From the IMG/VR virus record IMGVR_UViG_2846005711_000006: 24,149 nt of DNA. One strand, written 5' to 3'. This document shows positions 10,088 through 12,740 of the stretch, piece by piece. The notes under the pieces were generated by a model that made no database searches, was not told the origin of the DNA, and was given only the letters and a program-made list of their open reading frames with translations. The translations under genes and the position numbers were made by a program. The stretch is from an uncultured virus (IMG/VR IMGVR_UViG_2846005711_000006). Its lineage: Duplodnaviria; Heunggongvirae; Uroviricota; Caudoviricetes. Positions within the stretch are counted from its first letter, which is position 1, and the number at the start of each line of letters is the position of its first letter.

Positions 10088-11553
10088 ATGGTTACAGGTA
10101 AAATTGTAAGTGCACCTTTCGGTACGGCAGAACACTGGAATCAAATTAACTGGTTTCAGTGTAAAAAAAATACCAGAAGGCTACAAGCTCGTATTGTTCA
10201 GGCAACAAAAGCTAGGAGATGGAATAAAGTGAAAACTTTACAACGCCTCCTCACACGTAGTTTTAGTGCTAAAGCGTTGGCAGTAAAACGCGTAACTTCA
10301 AATAAAGGAAAATGTACAGCTGGTGTTGACAACCAGTTGTGGCAGAGCCCTTCAGCAAAATCTCAAGGAATTGCAAACCTGAGGCAACGAGGATATCGCT
10401 CTCAACCTTTGAGACGAGTCTATATCCCCAAACCTACAGGCAGCAAGCGACCTCTTAGTATTCCCACTATGAAAGATCGAGCGATGCAGGCCTTATATCT
10501 TATGGGACTTGATCCTGTTGCAGAAACAATAGGAGATAGACACTCATACGGATTTAGGAAACATCGCTCAGCTGCTGATGCGATAAGCCAGATCCACAAA
10601 ACTTTGGCGGGACGCGACAGATCGCAATGGATCCTAGAGGCGGATATTAAGAAGTGTTTTGATGAAATAGACCATTGCTGGTTAGAAAGCTCAATTCCAA
10701 TAGAAAAGAATATTCTCAGCAAATGGTTAAAATCTGGGTTCATAGAAAAACAAATGTTCCGCTTCACAATAGCAGGGACTCCACAAGGAGGAATTATCTC
10801 CCCTGTACTTGCTAACTTGACCCTTAATGGTTTCGAAAATGTTATCAGTAAACATTTCGGGAACAAGAAAACGCAAGAAATATGGTGTGCACGTGATTCG
10901 CTACGCGGATGACTTCATAGTAACTGGAAAATCAAAAGAAATTCTTGAGACTAAAGTTAAAAGGCTAGTAGAGGATTTCCTCAGCGACAGAGGGTTAACT
11001 CTATCCACAGGAAAAACCAAGATCACACACGTAGAACAGGGATTTGATTTTCTAGGTCAGACAGTACGAAAGGAAGATAATCATCAAACCTTCAGCAGAA
11101 AGTACAAACCGACTTCTGAAGCGCATCCGGTGCTTGATTCGTAAGAACTGCGCAGCAACCCAAGAAAAAGTAATAGAACTGCTCACACCTCAAATTCGAG
11201 GGTGGGTCTATTACCACAGGGGAATATGCGCAAGAAAAGCTTATGAGAAAGTGGATTCTGAGATTTTTAAAGCCTTATGGCAATGGTCAAAACGCAGACA
11301 CCCTAATAAAGGCTTACGCTGGATTAAGGGGAAATACTTTAAAACAAAAGAAGCCAGAAGATGGTGCTTTGCAGCGCTGACTAAGAATAAAGGTACAGTT
11401 GAGTGGAAGGAACTCTTTCAAGCAACAAGCGTACCAATTCGTCGCCACAAGAAAATTCAAGCTGAGGCAAATCCCTACGATAAAGAATGGTATGCCTACT
11501 TTGAAAAACGTAGATCAAATAATCCTTCTCTTTATGAGGATGATAAGATATGA
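10088..11553 (+). pseudogene. ltrA: Group II intron reverse transcriptase/maturase (LtrA-like), two frameshifts, no HNH domain
   Basis: RT motifs RPLSIPTMKDRAMQ, SYGFR, EADIKKCFDEI, GTPQGGIISPVLAN, RYADDF, FDFLG, thumb/X domain GWVYYHR..WQWSKRRHPNK; frame breaks near 10862 and 11074. Confidence 0.93.
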
Positions 11554-11642
11554 TTAATGTTAATCCTAGTAAGGAATTTGAAATGCCAGAATATTTGAAG
11601 GAAGCTGTTGCCGGTTCTCGAGAAAAGGACTTAAGATGGCTC

Positions 11643-11729
11643 GAGCCGTATGAAGGGAAACTTTCAAGTACGGTTCCTAGAGGAGAGTTTAGTGGAAAAT
11701 ATCTCAGTCCACTAAACTCTTACTCGTTC
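11643..11729 (+). ncRNA. Group II intron catalytic domain V and branch domain VI
   Basis: 34-nt DV with AGC triad and GAAA tetraloop; 13-bp DVI stem GAGAGTTTAGTGG/CCACTAAACTCTT plus GAG/CTC below bulged A. Confidence 0.93.
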
Positions 11730-12740
11730 AAAAGAATATTTGGCACTGAAAAAAATAAAGACATTCTTATCCACTTTCTCAATGACATTCTAGGCCTTAC
11801 TGATGAAGCTAAAATAGAAAATGTGCAGTTTCTAAATCCCATTCAAAATCCTGATATTGCTGCTAAAAAGGAAAGTATTGTTGATGTATTGTGTAGAGAT
11901 TCTAAAGGTGTTCAAACAATTGTTGAGATGCAAGTCGCTAGAACTACTGGCTTCGAAAAACGTGCACAATACTATGCCGCTAAAGCTTATTCCAGTCAAG
12001 CTGACGTAGGTGGTCAATATCAAGATCTGAAGGAAGTTGTCTTTATTGCTATCACTGATTTTATCCTATTTCCTAATAAACCAGAGTACAAATCCGATCA
12101 CGTTACTCTTGATAGAAAAACATTTGAACATGACCTGAAGGATTTTTACTTCGTATTTATAGAGCTACCAAAATTTACAAAAACCAAAGAAGACCAACTA
12201 GAAAATATAGTAGAGAAATGGTGTTATTTTTTTCGTTATGCAGGAGAAACAAGGGAAGAGGATCTAGATAAGATAGTTGGTAGTGACGTAATAATAAAAC
12301 GAGCTTATGAAGAGATGAATAAGTTTAACTGGTCAGAAGAAGAATTACTAGCATATGAGCAAAGGAAAAAACGTATAATGGATGAGATTGCTGCTTTTGC
12401 TGAAAAATTTGATGAGGGGCTTAGACTAGGTCAAGAAAAAGGTAGACAAGAAGGCATCCAAATCGGCCGTCAAAAAGGTAAAATTGAAGGTATAGCAGAG
12501 GGCGAACAACAGGCTAAAATAGCTGTGGCCAAAAATCTACTTAAGGCTGGCGTCTCTACTGACATCATATCGCAAACTACAGGTCTTTCCTCTAATGAAA
12601 TCAAGCAGTTACAGGCAGAAAGACCATATAGTTCCTTGATTTATCGCTCTAACACACTGCTTATTCCTTTAACTACTGATGTTCCATTTAAGAAAGTATT
12701 AGGCCTCTTAGGTAGCTCTACTTTTCTTGAAACTTGTTGA
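11730..12740 (+). CDS. Rpn family recombination-promoting nuclease / PD-(D/E)XK putative transposase, 3' exon
   Basis: SIVDVLC..IVEMQ..RAQYYAAKAY, FIELPKF, KWCYFF, G..EG repeats, C-terminal AKNLLKAGVSTDIISQTTGLS. True stop may be TAG 12629-12631 if one A is missing at 12619-12621. Confidence 0.93.
   Translation, partial: KRIFGTEKNKDILIHFLNDILGLTDEAKIENVQFLNPIQNPDIAAKKESIVDVLCRDSKGVQTIVEMQVARTTGFEKRAQYYAAKAYSSQADVGGQYQDLKEVVFIAITDFILFPNKPEYKSDHVTLDRKTFEHDLKDFYFVFIELPKFTKTKEDQLENIVEKWCYFFRYAGETREEDLDKIVGSDVIIKRAYEEMNKFNWSEEELLAYEQRKKRIMDEIAAFAEKFDEGLRLGQEKGRQEGIQIGRQKGKIEGIAEGEQQAKIAVAKNLLKAGVSTDIISQTTGLSSNEIKQLQAERPYSSLIYRSNTLLIPLTTDVPFKKVLGLLGSSTFLETC

What the first reader, a model, noticed from the sequence alone, without database searches (positions are those of the whole stretch)
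11536..11741. Intron 3' end encodes a substitute N-terminus that mimics the displaced 5' exon of its host gene
Seen: the last 180 nt of the intron (11550-11729, through DV and DVI) are 60 stop-free codons in frame with the rpn 3' exon. There are two in-frame starts with SD-like motifs: ATG 11550 (GAGGA 11536-11540, and overlapping the IEP stop as ATGA) and ATG 11583 (TAAGGA 11570-11575). The DVI loop and 3' strand translate as KYLSPLNSYSF|KRIF versus the true exon KFLDARNDYAF|KRIF: K, L, N, Y, F identical, Y/F and S/A similar, same register, and the Pro fits the common Rpn 'P..D..FK' start. Known (from memory): the Asp of D..FK is conserved and the equivalent residue is required for E. coli RpnA activity; the intron version has Ser there. 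Inference: dual-coding catalytic RNA that lets unspliced mRNA still make a full-fold Rpn, either compensating for the insertion or producing a nuclease-dead isoform, with splicing switching between two N-termini. I know of no described example. Caveat: Y and F are partly forced by the branch site and junction.
Basis: partly seen in the sequence, partly recalled or inferred. Interest (0 to 1): 0.9.

Follow-up and report, generated by a model that had tools for sequence, protein, structure and literature searches.

The report
Intron tail encodes surrogate protein start
A self-splicing intron that sits in a bacterial nuclease gene carries, inside its own last RNA hairpin, codons that imitate the gene's displaced first 12-15 amino acids, so unspliced messages could probably still be translated into a near-complete protein.

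Summary
A 2247-nt group II intron (9483-11729) splits a Wolbachia rpn (PDDEXK_2) gene after codon 15. Its last 61 codons are open in the exon-2 frame, with ATGs at 11550 and 11583. The long open frame by itself is ordinary for this intron class: 14 of 17 control rows are open for 23 or more codons.

The peptide mimicry is not ordinary. Seven intron lineages from Wolbachia, Rickettsia, Cardinium and three metagenome contigs form one IEP clade, and all sit at this same rpn codon. In each, the last 12-14 intron codons resemble that lineage's own 5' exon:
- The permutation test gave a summed BLOSUM score of 145 against -79±21.
- The matches lie at codon positions 1 and 2 (87 of 172). Position 3 (28 of 86) is near background.
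- In four lineages an in-frame ATG sits exactly where the native start codon would be.
- The last intron codon encodes F or Y in 7 of 7 lineages, against 1 of 30 controls.
- The conserved N-terminal Asp is never copied.

The window's own lineage has lost the hairpin ATG and instead reads in from upstream. This copy is also decaying: its IEP is broken by two 8-nt deletions. Translation is inferred, not shown. I found no description of this in the papers searched.

The parts
9438..9482 (+). rpn 5' exon: start codon plus 14 codons, ending in the conserved Asp-x-x-Phe of the family's N-terminal motif
   Evidence: Intron-less paralogues in G001 read straight through this junction. 120 public Wolbachia Rpn proteins were examined: 113 start with this native N-terminus, 6 with an intron-type one, and 1 is truncated.
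9483..11729 (+). Group II intron, 2247 nt. An in-frame TGA at 9486-9488 stops ribosomes that come from the native start.
   Evidence: Rfam RF02012 at 9528-9675 and RF00029 at 11641-11728. Borders come from the alignment with 10 related copies and from paralogues. The TGA was read directly.
10088..11553 (+). Intron-encoded protein (RVT_N, RVT_1, GIIM domains), broken into three frames by two 8-nt deletions after 10862 and after 11068
   Evidence: ORFs 10088-10912, 10827-11144 and 11134-11553. Pfam domains. An intact 493-aa version exists in G016. The deletions were located.
11536..11552 (+). Purine-rich SD-like motif (11536-11540) and ATG 11550, which overlaps the IEP stop codon (11551-11553)
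   Evidence: Read directly. The overlap is also present in the sister lineage, where it is out of frame with exon 2.
11570..11585 (+). Second SD-like motif (11570-11575) and in-frame ATG 11583
   Evidence: Read directly. The ATG is conserved as sequence in the sister lineage, but there it is out of frame with exon 2.
11643..11676 (+). Domain V, read here in the frame that is open in the whole intron class
11680..11725 (+). Domain VI hairpin with the bulged branch-site A at 11722, 8 nt from the intron end
   Evidence: Fold of -22.6 kcal/mol, z -5.5. Compensatory changes are seen against the sister lineage.
11694..11729 (+). The last 12 intron codons (DVI loop, 3' strand and tail): the N-terminal mimic. 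The last codon is TTC (Phe).
11730..12740 (+). rpn exon 2 (PDDEXK_2 core and a C-terminal RpnA-like piece). This copy runs about 38 codons past the usual stop.
   Evidence: Pfam 163.8 bits. Alignment with 45 relatives. The C-terminal match to PDB 7th0_A has E 0.0014.

Best explanation
A clade of group II introns specialised on codon 12-15 of rpn (PDDEXK_2) genes uses domain VI for two jobs. As RNA, DVI is the branch-site hairpin. As message, its loop, 3' strand and tail are codons in phase with exon 2 that imitate the N-terminal residues the intron displaced. An in-frame start codon lies in or upstream of the hairpin, and the hairpin's purine-rich 5' strand could serve as a ribosome-binding site.

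When the intron is spliced, the native Rpn is made. When it is not, ribosomes from the native start stop at once inside the intron. Initiation at the intron's own start would then yield an Rpn with a look-alike first helix that lacks the N-terminal Asp, which E. coli RpnA needs. The product is therefore probably folded but not an active nuclease.

In the window's lineage the hairpin ATG has become AGT, and a 1-nt loss joins the mimic to 47 upstream codons. These begin at ATG 11550, which overlaps the IEP stop (a possible coupling), or at ATG 11583.

Shown: the anatomy, the mimicry, its tracking of the host exon type, and the codon-position pattern. Inferred: that the mimic is translated, and what the product does.
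For: (1) Same site, one clade. The seven lineages are Wolbachia A (window, G001, G016), Wolbachia B (G017, G056), a Rickettsia endosymbiont, Cardinium, and metagenome loci L156, L157 and L158. All interrupt a PDDEXK_2 gene at the same codon. They form one IEP clade with 100/100 support among 22 rows; one row was dropped for stops.

(2) Tail against own exon. P(score) is at most 7.75e-4 in 7 of 8 rows, and 0.046 for Cardinium. Of 30 control introns of the class, the best score was -1.

(3) The tails track the host. Tails in type I hosts score 16-33 against type I exons and 1-14 against type II. Tails of L156 and L157 score 15-30 against type II exons and -6 to 7 against type I. The Rickettsia intron is sister to the Cardinium intron but sits in a type I gene, and its tail matches type I.

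(4) The likeness is at the amino-acid level, not the nucleotide level. Over 86 codons there are 42, 45 and 28 matches at codon positions 1, 2 and 3, against a background of 0.26-0.28. Identical residues share the third base in only 7 of 27 cases. In codon-order permutation, positions 1+2 gave 87 against 46.2±5.9 (0 of 20000 reach it), while position 3 gave P 0.063.

(5) Start codons. An in-frame ATG lies exactly at the native start distance in 4 of 7 lineages (-12, -12, -12 and -14), and at -13 against -15 in Wolbachia B. An ATG lies within 15 codons of the junction in 6 of 7 lineages, against 1 of 17 control rows.

(6) The last intron codon encodes Phe or Tyr in 7 of 7 lineages. In the 30 controls it is Asp in 27 and Tyr in 1.

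(7) Pfam gain from adding the 12-14 intron codons: +9.6, +9.9, +7.7, +6.7, +5.4, +3.9 and +3.2 bits. A native N-terminus adds +10.8.

(8) Differences between the tails of Wolbachia A and B are mostly synonymous in this frame (5:2 and 5:5), against 2:5 and 0:6 or worse in the other frames. Summed over 21 tail pairs, peptide similarity is 228 in this frame against 10 and -64 in the others.

(9) Every tail still folds as a DVI hairpin with a bulged A. The intron is mobile with this tail: G016 holds five copies with an intact IEP, two of them at non-rpn sites.

(10) Contigs from two RNA libraries, and from two runs only guessed to be RNA, cross both intron borders unspliced.
Against: - No direct evidence of translation exists. 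No raw reads, ribosome profiling or peptides were available.
- The window's lineage lacks the hairpin start. Its ATGs at 11550 and 11583 are out of frame in the sister lineage.
- The 47 upstream codons are not conserved as protein. 12 of the first 25 differ between the two Wolbachia lineages, as read from the output.
- The conserved Asp is replaced in all 7 lineages, so nuclease function cannot be restored if that Asp is as essential as D11 of RpnA.
- The Cardinium match is marginal (P 0.046-0.065).
- All lineages belong to one clade, so they are not independent replicates.
- The open frame through DV and DVI is typical of the class, and an in-frame ATG somewhere upstream occurs in 10 of 17 control rows.
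- This copy looks decayed. Its IEP is broken and its stop codon is lost.
- The structure models are of low confidence (pLDDT 62.7 and 59.5).
Confidence: 0.66

Rival explanations
1. Chance. The frame is open because DV and DVI of this intron class happen to lack stops in that phase, and the peptide likeness is a coincidence of AT-rich composition and branch-site constraints.
For: Frame 0 is open for 23 or more codons in 14 of 17 control rows, and 10 of those 17 carry an in-frame ATG. The Leu at -3 in several tails comes from the class-wide branch-site sequence.
Against: Composition-preserving permutation never reached the observed score (0 of 20000). None of 30 control tails scored above -1. 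The tails follow the host exon type. The start codon sits at the native distance in 4 lineages.
Confidence: 0.04
2. A relic of duplication. An old rearrangement copied the gene's first codons into the intron's 3' end, and the likeness is decaying homology with no present role.
For: The start codon lies at the same distance as the native one in 4 lineages. Nucleotide identity between tail and exon is 19 of 36 in the window.
Against: Neutral decay would hit all codon positions alike. Here positions 1 and 2 match at 49-52% and position 3 at 33%, against a background of 27%. The basal part of the tail is homologous to the class consensus, not to an exon. Tails differ widely between lineages (22-78% nucleotide identity), yet each fits its own exon. 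The Rickettsia intron fits a host type different from that of its sister intron.
Confidence: 0.1
3. RNA-level mimicry. The tail imitates the homing site (the IBS-like 5' exon) so that the intron's exon-binding sites can pair with its own end, for example to regulate splicing or reverse splicing. The coding likeness would be a by-product.
For: The last 5-6 nt of the tail equal or resemble the last nt of some 5' exons. One candidate exon-binding hexamer pairs 5 of 6 with all exon variants. By my own reading, not a call, it pairs equally well with the tail.
Against: Third codon positions are near background, whereas base pairing would constrain them too. The Rickettsia tail is like its exon as peptide (P 7.5e-4) but not as nucleotides (12 of 36, P 0.28). 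In the wider class, the 5' exon ends vary while the intron end stays constant. The exon-binding sites could not be assigned with confidence.
Confidence: 0.1
4. The coding is selected, but not to rescue Rpn. In-frame translation of exon 2 would matter only to keep the message translated, that is, to protect it or to allow expression of a downstream internal antitoxin-like product. The N-terminal identity would then be irrelevant.
For: The C-terminal piece matches the RpnA fragment in PDB 7th0. Variable four-residue repeats lie before it, as described for Rpn toxins with intragenic antitoxins (PMC10400941; search listing only). The Asp is never copied.
Against: Mere translation would not require imitation of the displaced residues or a start at the native distance.
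Confidence: 0.1

Closest known systems
Mobile bacterial group II introns with an intron-encoded reverse transcriptase/maturase (the Ll.LtrB type; recalled)
   Same: The ribozyme has six domains. The IEP lies in domain IV and carries RVT and maturase domains. The intron homes to one preferred site, and multiple copies occur, including ectopic ones.
   Different: In the known introns, the sequence after the IEP is treated as pure RNA structure. Here DVI and the tail also carry codons, and in most lineages a start codon, matched to the host protein.
Alternative splicing of a group II intron in a Clostridium tetani surface-layer gene (PMC3919590; search listing and abstract start only)
   Same: A bacterial group II intron yields more than one protein form from one gene.
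   Different: There the isoforms arise from alternative splice sites. Here the second form would arise without splicing, from a start inside the intron. No alternative splice junction was seen.
Integrating phages and islands that carry a copy of the target gene's end and so restore the gene they split (recalled, not checked here)
   Same: A mobile element brings its own replacement for the gene part it displaces, which lowers the cost of insertion.
   Different: Those copies are nucleotide-level duplicates at an attachment site. Here the likeness is only at the amino-acid level, it lies inside a catalytic RNA helix, and it leaves out a key acidic residue.
Organelle group II introns whose IEP is translated in frame with the upstream exon (recalled)
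   Same: Intron sequence is read in phase with a host exon.
   Different: That phase link is upstream and serves expression of the IEP. Here it is downstream and serves the host gene's product.
Rpn nucleases with intragenic antitoxins (PMC10400941, listing only; PMC5350276, passages read)
   Same: The host gene is of this kind: a PD-(D/E)XK core, a required N-terminal Asp, and a C-terminal piece like PDB 7th0.
   Different: The host gene belongs to Pfam PDDEXK_2, not the transposase_31 family of E. coli RpnA. No intron is described in those papers in the parts I saw.

Membership tests
Group II intron (Rfam RF00029 / RF02012 class) | Domain V and VI match above the gathering score | tested here: met
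   RF00029 scored 54 bits against a cut-off of 40, at 11641-11728.
Group II intron (Rfam RF00029 / RF02012 class) | Domain I-IV ribozyme match | tested here: met
   RF02012 scored 94.3 bits against a cut-off of 34, at 9528-9675.
Group II intron (Rfam RF00029 / RF02012 class) | DVI hairpin with a bulged A 7-8 nt from the 3' end | tested here: met
   Fold with a bulged A at 11722. The same architecture appears in all 7 lineages.
Group II intron (Rfam RF00029 / RF02012 class) | Precise interruption of a gene that is continuous elsewhere | tested here: met
   Intron-less paralogues in G001 join the two exons in frame.
Group II intron (Rfam RF00029 / RF02012 class) | Intact IEP (reverse transcriptase plus maturase) | tested here: not met
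   The domains are present but split over three frames by two 8-nt deletions. The IEP is intact in the G016 copies.
Group II intron (Rfam RF00029 / RF02012 class) | Splicing in vivo | tested here: inconclusive
   Only contigs were available. None joins 9482 to 11730, and contigs cannot show absence.
Rpn-type PD-(D/E)XK nuclease (Pfam PF12784 PDDEXK_2) | Profile match above the cut-off | tested here: met
   Exon 2 alone scored 163.8 bits against a cut-off of 27.4.
Rpn-type PD-(D/E)XK nuclease (Pfam PF12784 PDDEXK_2) | N-terminal Asp of the Asp-x-x-Phe-Lys motif | tested here: not met
   The Asp is present in the 5' exon. In the intron-coded version it is Ser, and it is Ser, Pro or Cys across all 7 lineages. 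The equivalence to RpnA D11 is inferred.
Target-restoring mobile element (duplicate of the displaced gene end) | Nucleotide-level copy of the displaced segment | tested here: not met
   Third codon positions match at 33% against a background of 27%. Identical residues share the third base in 7 of 27 cases.
Alternatively spliced group II intron | Use of more than one splice site | tested here: inconclusive
   No alternative joint appears in the contigs of 4 runs. No raw reads were available.
Rpn toxin with intragenic antitoxin | C-terminal domain shared by the long and short products | tested here: inconclusive
   A profile of 37 relatives matches PDB 7th0_A at E 0.0014. The internal start was not examined.

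The most novel reading that the evidence does not exclude
Domain VI of this intron clade does three jobs at once: branch-site helix, ribosome-binding site with start codon, and coding sequence. Folding of the hairpin (which allows splicing) and its unfolding by ribosomes (which allows translation) would then exclude each other, forming a built-in switch. Spliced RNA would give the active Rpn nuclease. Unspliced RNA would give an Asp-less look-alike that is not merely harmless but acts on the Rpn system, for example as a dominant-negative partner or antitoxin-like brake. In that case the intron would tune a toxic defence nuclease rather than simply interrupting it.
Probability: 0.2. Interest if true: 0.95.

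Novelty: new variant of a known kind. Interest (0 to 1): 0.85.

Why it matters
Group II introns are thought to limit their cost to the host only by splicing well or by avoiding genes. Here the comparative pattern says that a catalytic RNA helix has been shaped, codon by codon, to supply a replacement N-terminus and start codon for the host protein. If so, this would be a new way for a selfish element to soften its insertion. It would also be a clear natural case of one sequence under simultaneous RNA-structure and protein selection, and a possible splicing-versus-translation switch. In practical terms, public protein sets already hold Rpn entries whose first residues are intron-derived. Annotators should therefore recognise these as intron-interrupted genes.

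Tried and rejected
- The window's own genome is not held, so I used the nearest genome, G001.
- Two look-ups of earlier findings returned nothing.
- Regex detection of domain V missed many loci or failed outright. I therefore took only loci with clear ends as controls: 30 and 17 rows. Most of the 80 loci and of the 80 were not analysed.
- The exon-binding sites could not be assigned. Several hexamers fit about equally well, so the RNA-pairing rival could not be tested directly.
- Sequencing runs gave only assembled contigs. No 9482-to-11730 joint was seen. The single joint (9461 to 11720, with 11 other letters between) is an intron-less paralogue. For two of the four runs, their status as RNA is only a guess. 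This says nothing about whether splicing occurs.
- The structure models were of low confidence (pLDDT 62.7 and 59.5). The intron-coded residues 54-60 are drawn as the start of the first helix, but the alignment used may have imposed that. I made no fold search.
- The scan of viral contigs found no close relative of the intron. The best hit was 54% identical, plus one 62% fragment.
- Literature: searches found no description of introns in rpn or of an intron-coded N-terminus. The Leclercq et al. 2011 paper on Wolbachia introns is not in the library and was not read. The proteome papers on the G016-type strain gave nothing on Rpn N-termini in the passages seen, and I did not open their supplements.
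Full report
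WHAT IS THERE. The window comes from a Wolbachia prophage region. The flanks match phage WO records, and the neighbours are a RadC gene and a double-HTH regulator. An rpn gene of Pfam family PDDEXK_2 starts at 9438. After 15 codons it is interrupted by a 2247-nt group II intron (9483-11729), and exon 2 runs from 11730 to 12740. Rfam finds the D1-D4 ribozyme at 9528-9675 (94.3 bits) and DV/DVI at 11641-11728 (54 bits). Intron-less paralogues in the nearest held genome, G001, join the two exons in frame, which fixes both borders. The intron's reverse transcriptase/maturase is split over three frames by two 8-nt deletions, after 10862 and after 11068, relative to intact copies. G001 carries the same broken copy plus one truncated copy and no intact IEP of this family. 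Exon 2 of this copy also runs about 38 codons past the usual stop.

THE OBSERVATION. There are 61 stop-free codons before the 3' splice site in the exon-2 frame. ATG 11550 overlaps the IEP stop codon, and a second ATG lies at 11583. Purine-rich motifs sit 9 and 7 nt upstream of those ATGs. Five of the last 12 intron-coded residues are identical to the 5' exon in the same register.

WHAT IS ORDINARY. I collected related introns with the intact IEP from G016. They came from one-per-species genomes, from metagenome contigs and from viral contigs. In introns of the same class at unrelated sites, the frame whose codon ends on the last intron base is open for 23 or more codons in 14 of 17 rows. It contains an ATG before the first stop in 10 of those 17. 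The reason is that the class-wide distance from DV to the splice site is a multiple of three, and DV has no stop in that phase. The 180-nt open frame is therefore not evidence. The window's starts are not conserved in phase either. The sister Wolbachia lineage B is about 80% identical and occurs in G017 and G056. It has one extra base in the DVI loop, so the ORF from the 11550-equivalent ATG ends at a stop in the loop. The 47 codons upstream of DVI also differ freely between the two lineages.

WHAT IS NOT ORDINARY. Seven intron lineages sit at this same codon of a PDDEXK_2 gene:
- Wolbachia A (the window, G001, G016);
- Wolbachia B;
- a Rickettsia endosymbiont (L061);
- Cardinium (L059, L060);
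- three metagenome loci (L156, L157, L158).

Their IEPs form one clade with 100/100 support among 22 rows, one control row having been dropped for stops. In each lineage I compared the last 12-14 intron codons with that lineage's own 5' exon, with these results.

(i) BLOSUM scores run from 15 to 33, and 2 for Cardinium, against nulls near -12±7. P is at most 7.75e-4 in 7 of 8 rows and 0.046 for Cardinium. Thirty control introns score -1 or lower.

(ii) The host exons come in two types, and the tails match their own type and not the other (matrix). The Rickettsia intron is sister to the Cardinium intron in the IEP tree but lives in the other exon type, and its tail fits that type.

(iii) The likeness is at the amino-acid level. 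Over 86 codons the matches at codon positions 1, 2 and 3 number 42, 45 and 28, against a background of 26-28%. Identical residues share the third base in only 7 of 27 cases. When codon order is shuffled, the position 1+2 count (87) is never reached in 20000 trials (mean 46.2±5.9). Position 3 is not significant (P 0.063). The summed BLOSUM score is 145 against -78.8±21.

(iv) An in-frame ATG lies exactly at the native start distance in four lineages: -12 in Cardinium, L156 and L157, and -14 in L158. In Wolbachia B it lies at -13 against a native -15. An ATG within 15 codons of the junction occurs in 6 of 7 lineages, against 1 of 17 control rows.

(v) The last intron codon encodes Phe or Tyr in 7 of 7 lineages. 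In 30 controls it is Asp in 27, Tyr in 1, Asn in 1 and Gly in 1.

(vi) Adding the intron codons raises the Pfam PDDEXK_2 score of exon 2 in all seven lineages, by +3.2 to +9.9 bits. The gain is +9.6 in the window, and a native N-terminus gives +10.8.

(vii) Differences between the tails of Wolbachia A and B are mostly synonymous in this frame and not in the other two. Over 21 tail pairs, peptide similarity is 228 in this frame against 10 and -64 in the others, while nucleotide identity between tails is only 22-78%.

(viii) Every tail still folds as a DVI hairpin with a bulged A 7-8 nt from the end. The start codons lie inside the hairpin, downstream of its purine-rich 5' strand.

THE WINDOW'S LINEAGE. 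In Wolbachia A the hairpin ATG reads AGT, and one base is missing relative to lineage B. The mimic is therefore reached only from ATG 11583 or ATG 11550, 49 and 60 codons upstream. The overlap of ATG 11550 with the IEP stop suggests coupling to IEP translation. In this copy the IEP frame is broken, so that route is doubtful here. The fused ORF of this type is already annotated as a protein in public sets (P0122, 99% identical over the first 75 residues). Lineage-B-type starts are annotated many times. 6 of the 120 best Rpn relatives carry intron-type N-termini, as do 13 of the 14 hits to the window's N-terminal 75 residues.

MECHANISM (inferred). A transcript from the rpn promoter either splices, giving the native protein, or does not. 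If unspliced, ribosomes from the native start meet an in-frame TGA at 9486-9488. Initiation at the intron's own start then reads through the DVI 3' strand into exon 2. The product has a look-alike first helix. In a low-confidence model, intron-coded residues 54-60 begin that helix, while the native model has the helix at residues 12-19. The conserved Asp is replaced by Ser, Pro or Cys in all seven lineages. That codon lies in the G-C-rich basal helix next to the branch site, which may forbid an Asp codon. In E. coli RpnA the D11A change abolishes recombination, toxicity and SOS induction (passages of PMC5350276), so the unspliced product is probably not an active nuclease. Whether it stabilises something, acts as a brake on Rpn, or only keeps the message translated remains open. 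The C-terminal piece matches the RpnA fragment in PDB 7th0 (E 0.0014), which fits the published picture of Rpn toxins with intragenic antitoxins (PMC10400941, listing only).

RIVALS. Chance is excluded by the permutation tests and the controls. A neutral relic of a duplicated exon is contradicted by the codon-position pattern, by the class homology of the basal tail, and by the host-type tracking. Nucleotide-level mimicry of the homing site is contradicted by the near-background third positions and by the Rickettsia case, where the tail is like its exon as peptide but not as nucleotides. However, the exon-binding sites could not be assigned. The lineages belong to one clade, so the number of independent events is small: at least two host types plus one host switch.

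EXPRESSION DATA. Only assembled contigs were on offer. Contigs from two RNA libraries, and from two runs whose RNA status is a guess, cross both intron borders unspliced. No spliced joint was seen, which proves nothing either way.

NOVELTY. Searches and the passages read note reverse transcriptases and Rpn genes side by side in WO prophages. They do not say that the intron sits in rpn, and they do not mention any intron-coded N-terminus. The key paper on Wolbachia introns (Leclercq et al. 2011) is not in the library and was not read. I rate this a new variant of a known kind: a group II intron with an added, previously undescribed coding function in DVI.

Noticed in passing
L137, L144 (G003), L147 (G031), L148 (G002): A second, different group II intron lineage (IEP 57-64% identical) interrupts Wolbachia rpn genes at an internal site, just before the conserved Gln-Val-Ala-Lys...Gly-Phe-Glu-Lys-Arg stretch of the nuclease core. 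Its frame-0 tail shows no likeness to the rpn N-terminus (score -14).
   Followed up: partly
window 8400-9335 (-) and 7544-8212 (-): The neighbours are a double-HTH regulator of the wmk kind and a RadC/JAB gene. The regulator carries two short stretches that resemble the Rpn C-terminal motif found at the end of the window's rpn.
   Followed up: no
window 13324-18867 (-): An 1847-aa ORF with a long array of near-identical ankyrin-like repeats.
   Followed up: no
G001:C1:887831-891234 (L002, L003) and G049 (L055): A second, 5'-truncated copy of the intron in G001 is interrupted by about 2.4 kb at the point equivalent to window 11662/11663, inside DV. The G049 copy also ends at that same point, so this may be a preferred insertion site of another element.
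   Followed up: no
window 11730-11830 compared with L001 and L003: The window's intron differs from the orthologous G001 copy at 3 positions. The first 100 nt of exon 2 differ at 29 positions yet are identical to the other G001 copy, which indicates mosaicism between rpn paralogues.
   Followed up: partly
L053, L054 (G017): One extra A in an A-run near the IEP's end fuses the IEP to the downstream frame. The ORF then runs through DV into the DVI loop (565 open codons).
   Followed up: no
L158 position 889: This intron appears to begin with C instead of the usual G at its first base. Its IEP is intact and its exons are in phase.
   Followed up: no
L143 (G359): A more distant intron (IEP about 46% identical) ends with the same Tyr-coding tail as the Rickettsia and Cardinium introns. 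It sits in front of a different coding sequence that may belong to a YhgA-like gene.
   Followed up: no
window 12380-12520 and alignment A4 columns 300-360: The region before the Rpn C-terminal piece consists of a variable number of short Gly/Glu/Arg/Ile-rich repeats that differ in count between paralogues.
   Followed up: no
L050, L051 (G056): Both G056 copies have one extra C at the intron/exon-2 border, so neither the spliced frame nor the hairpin-ATG frame continues into exon 2. A near-identical public protein (P0131) is in frame.
   Followed up: partly
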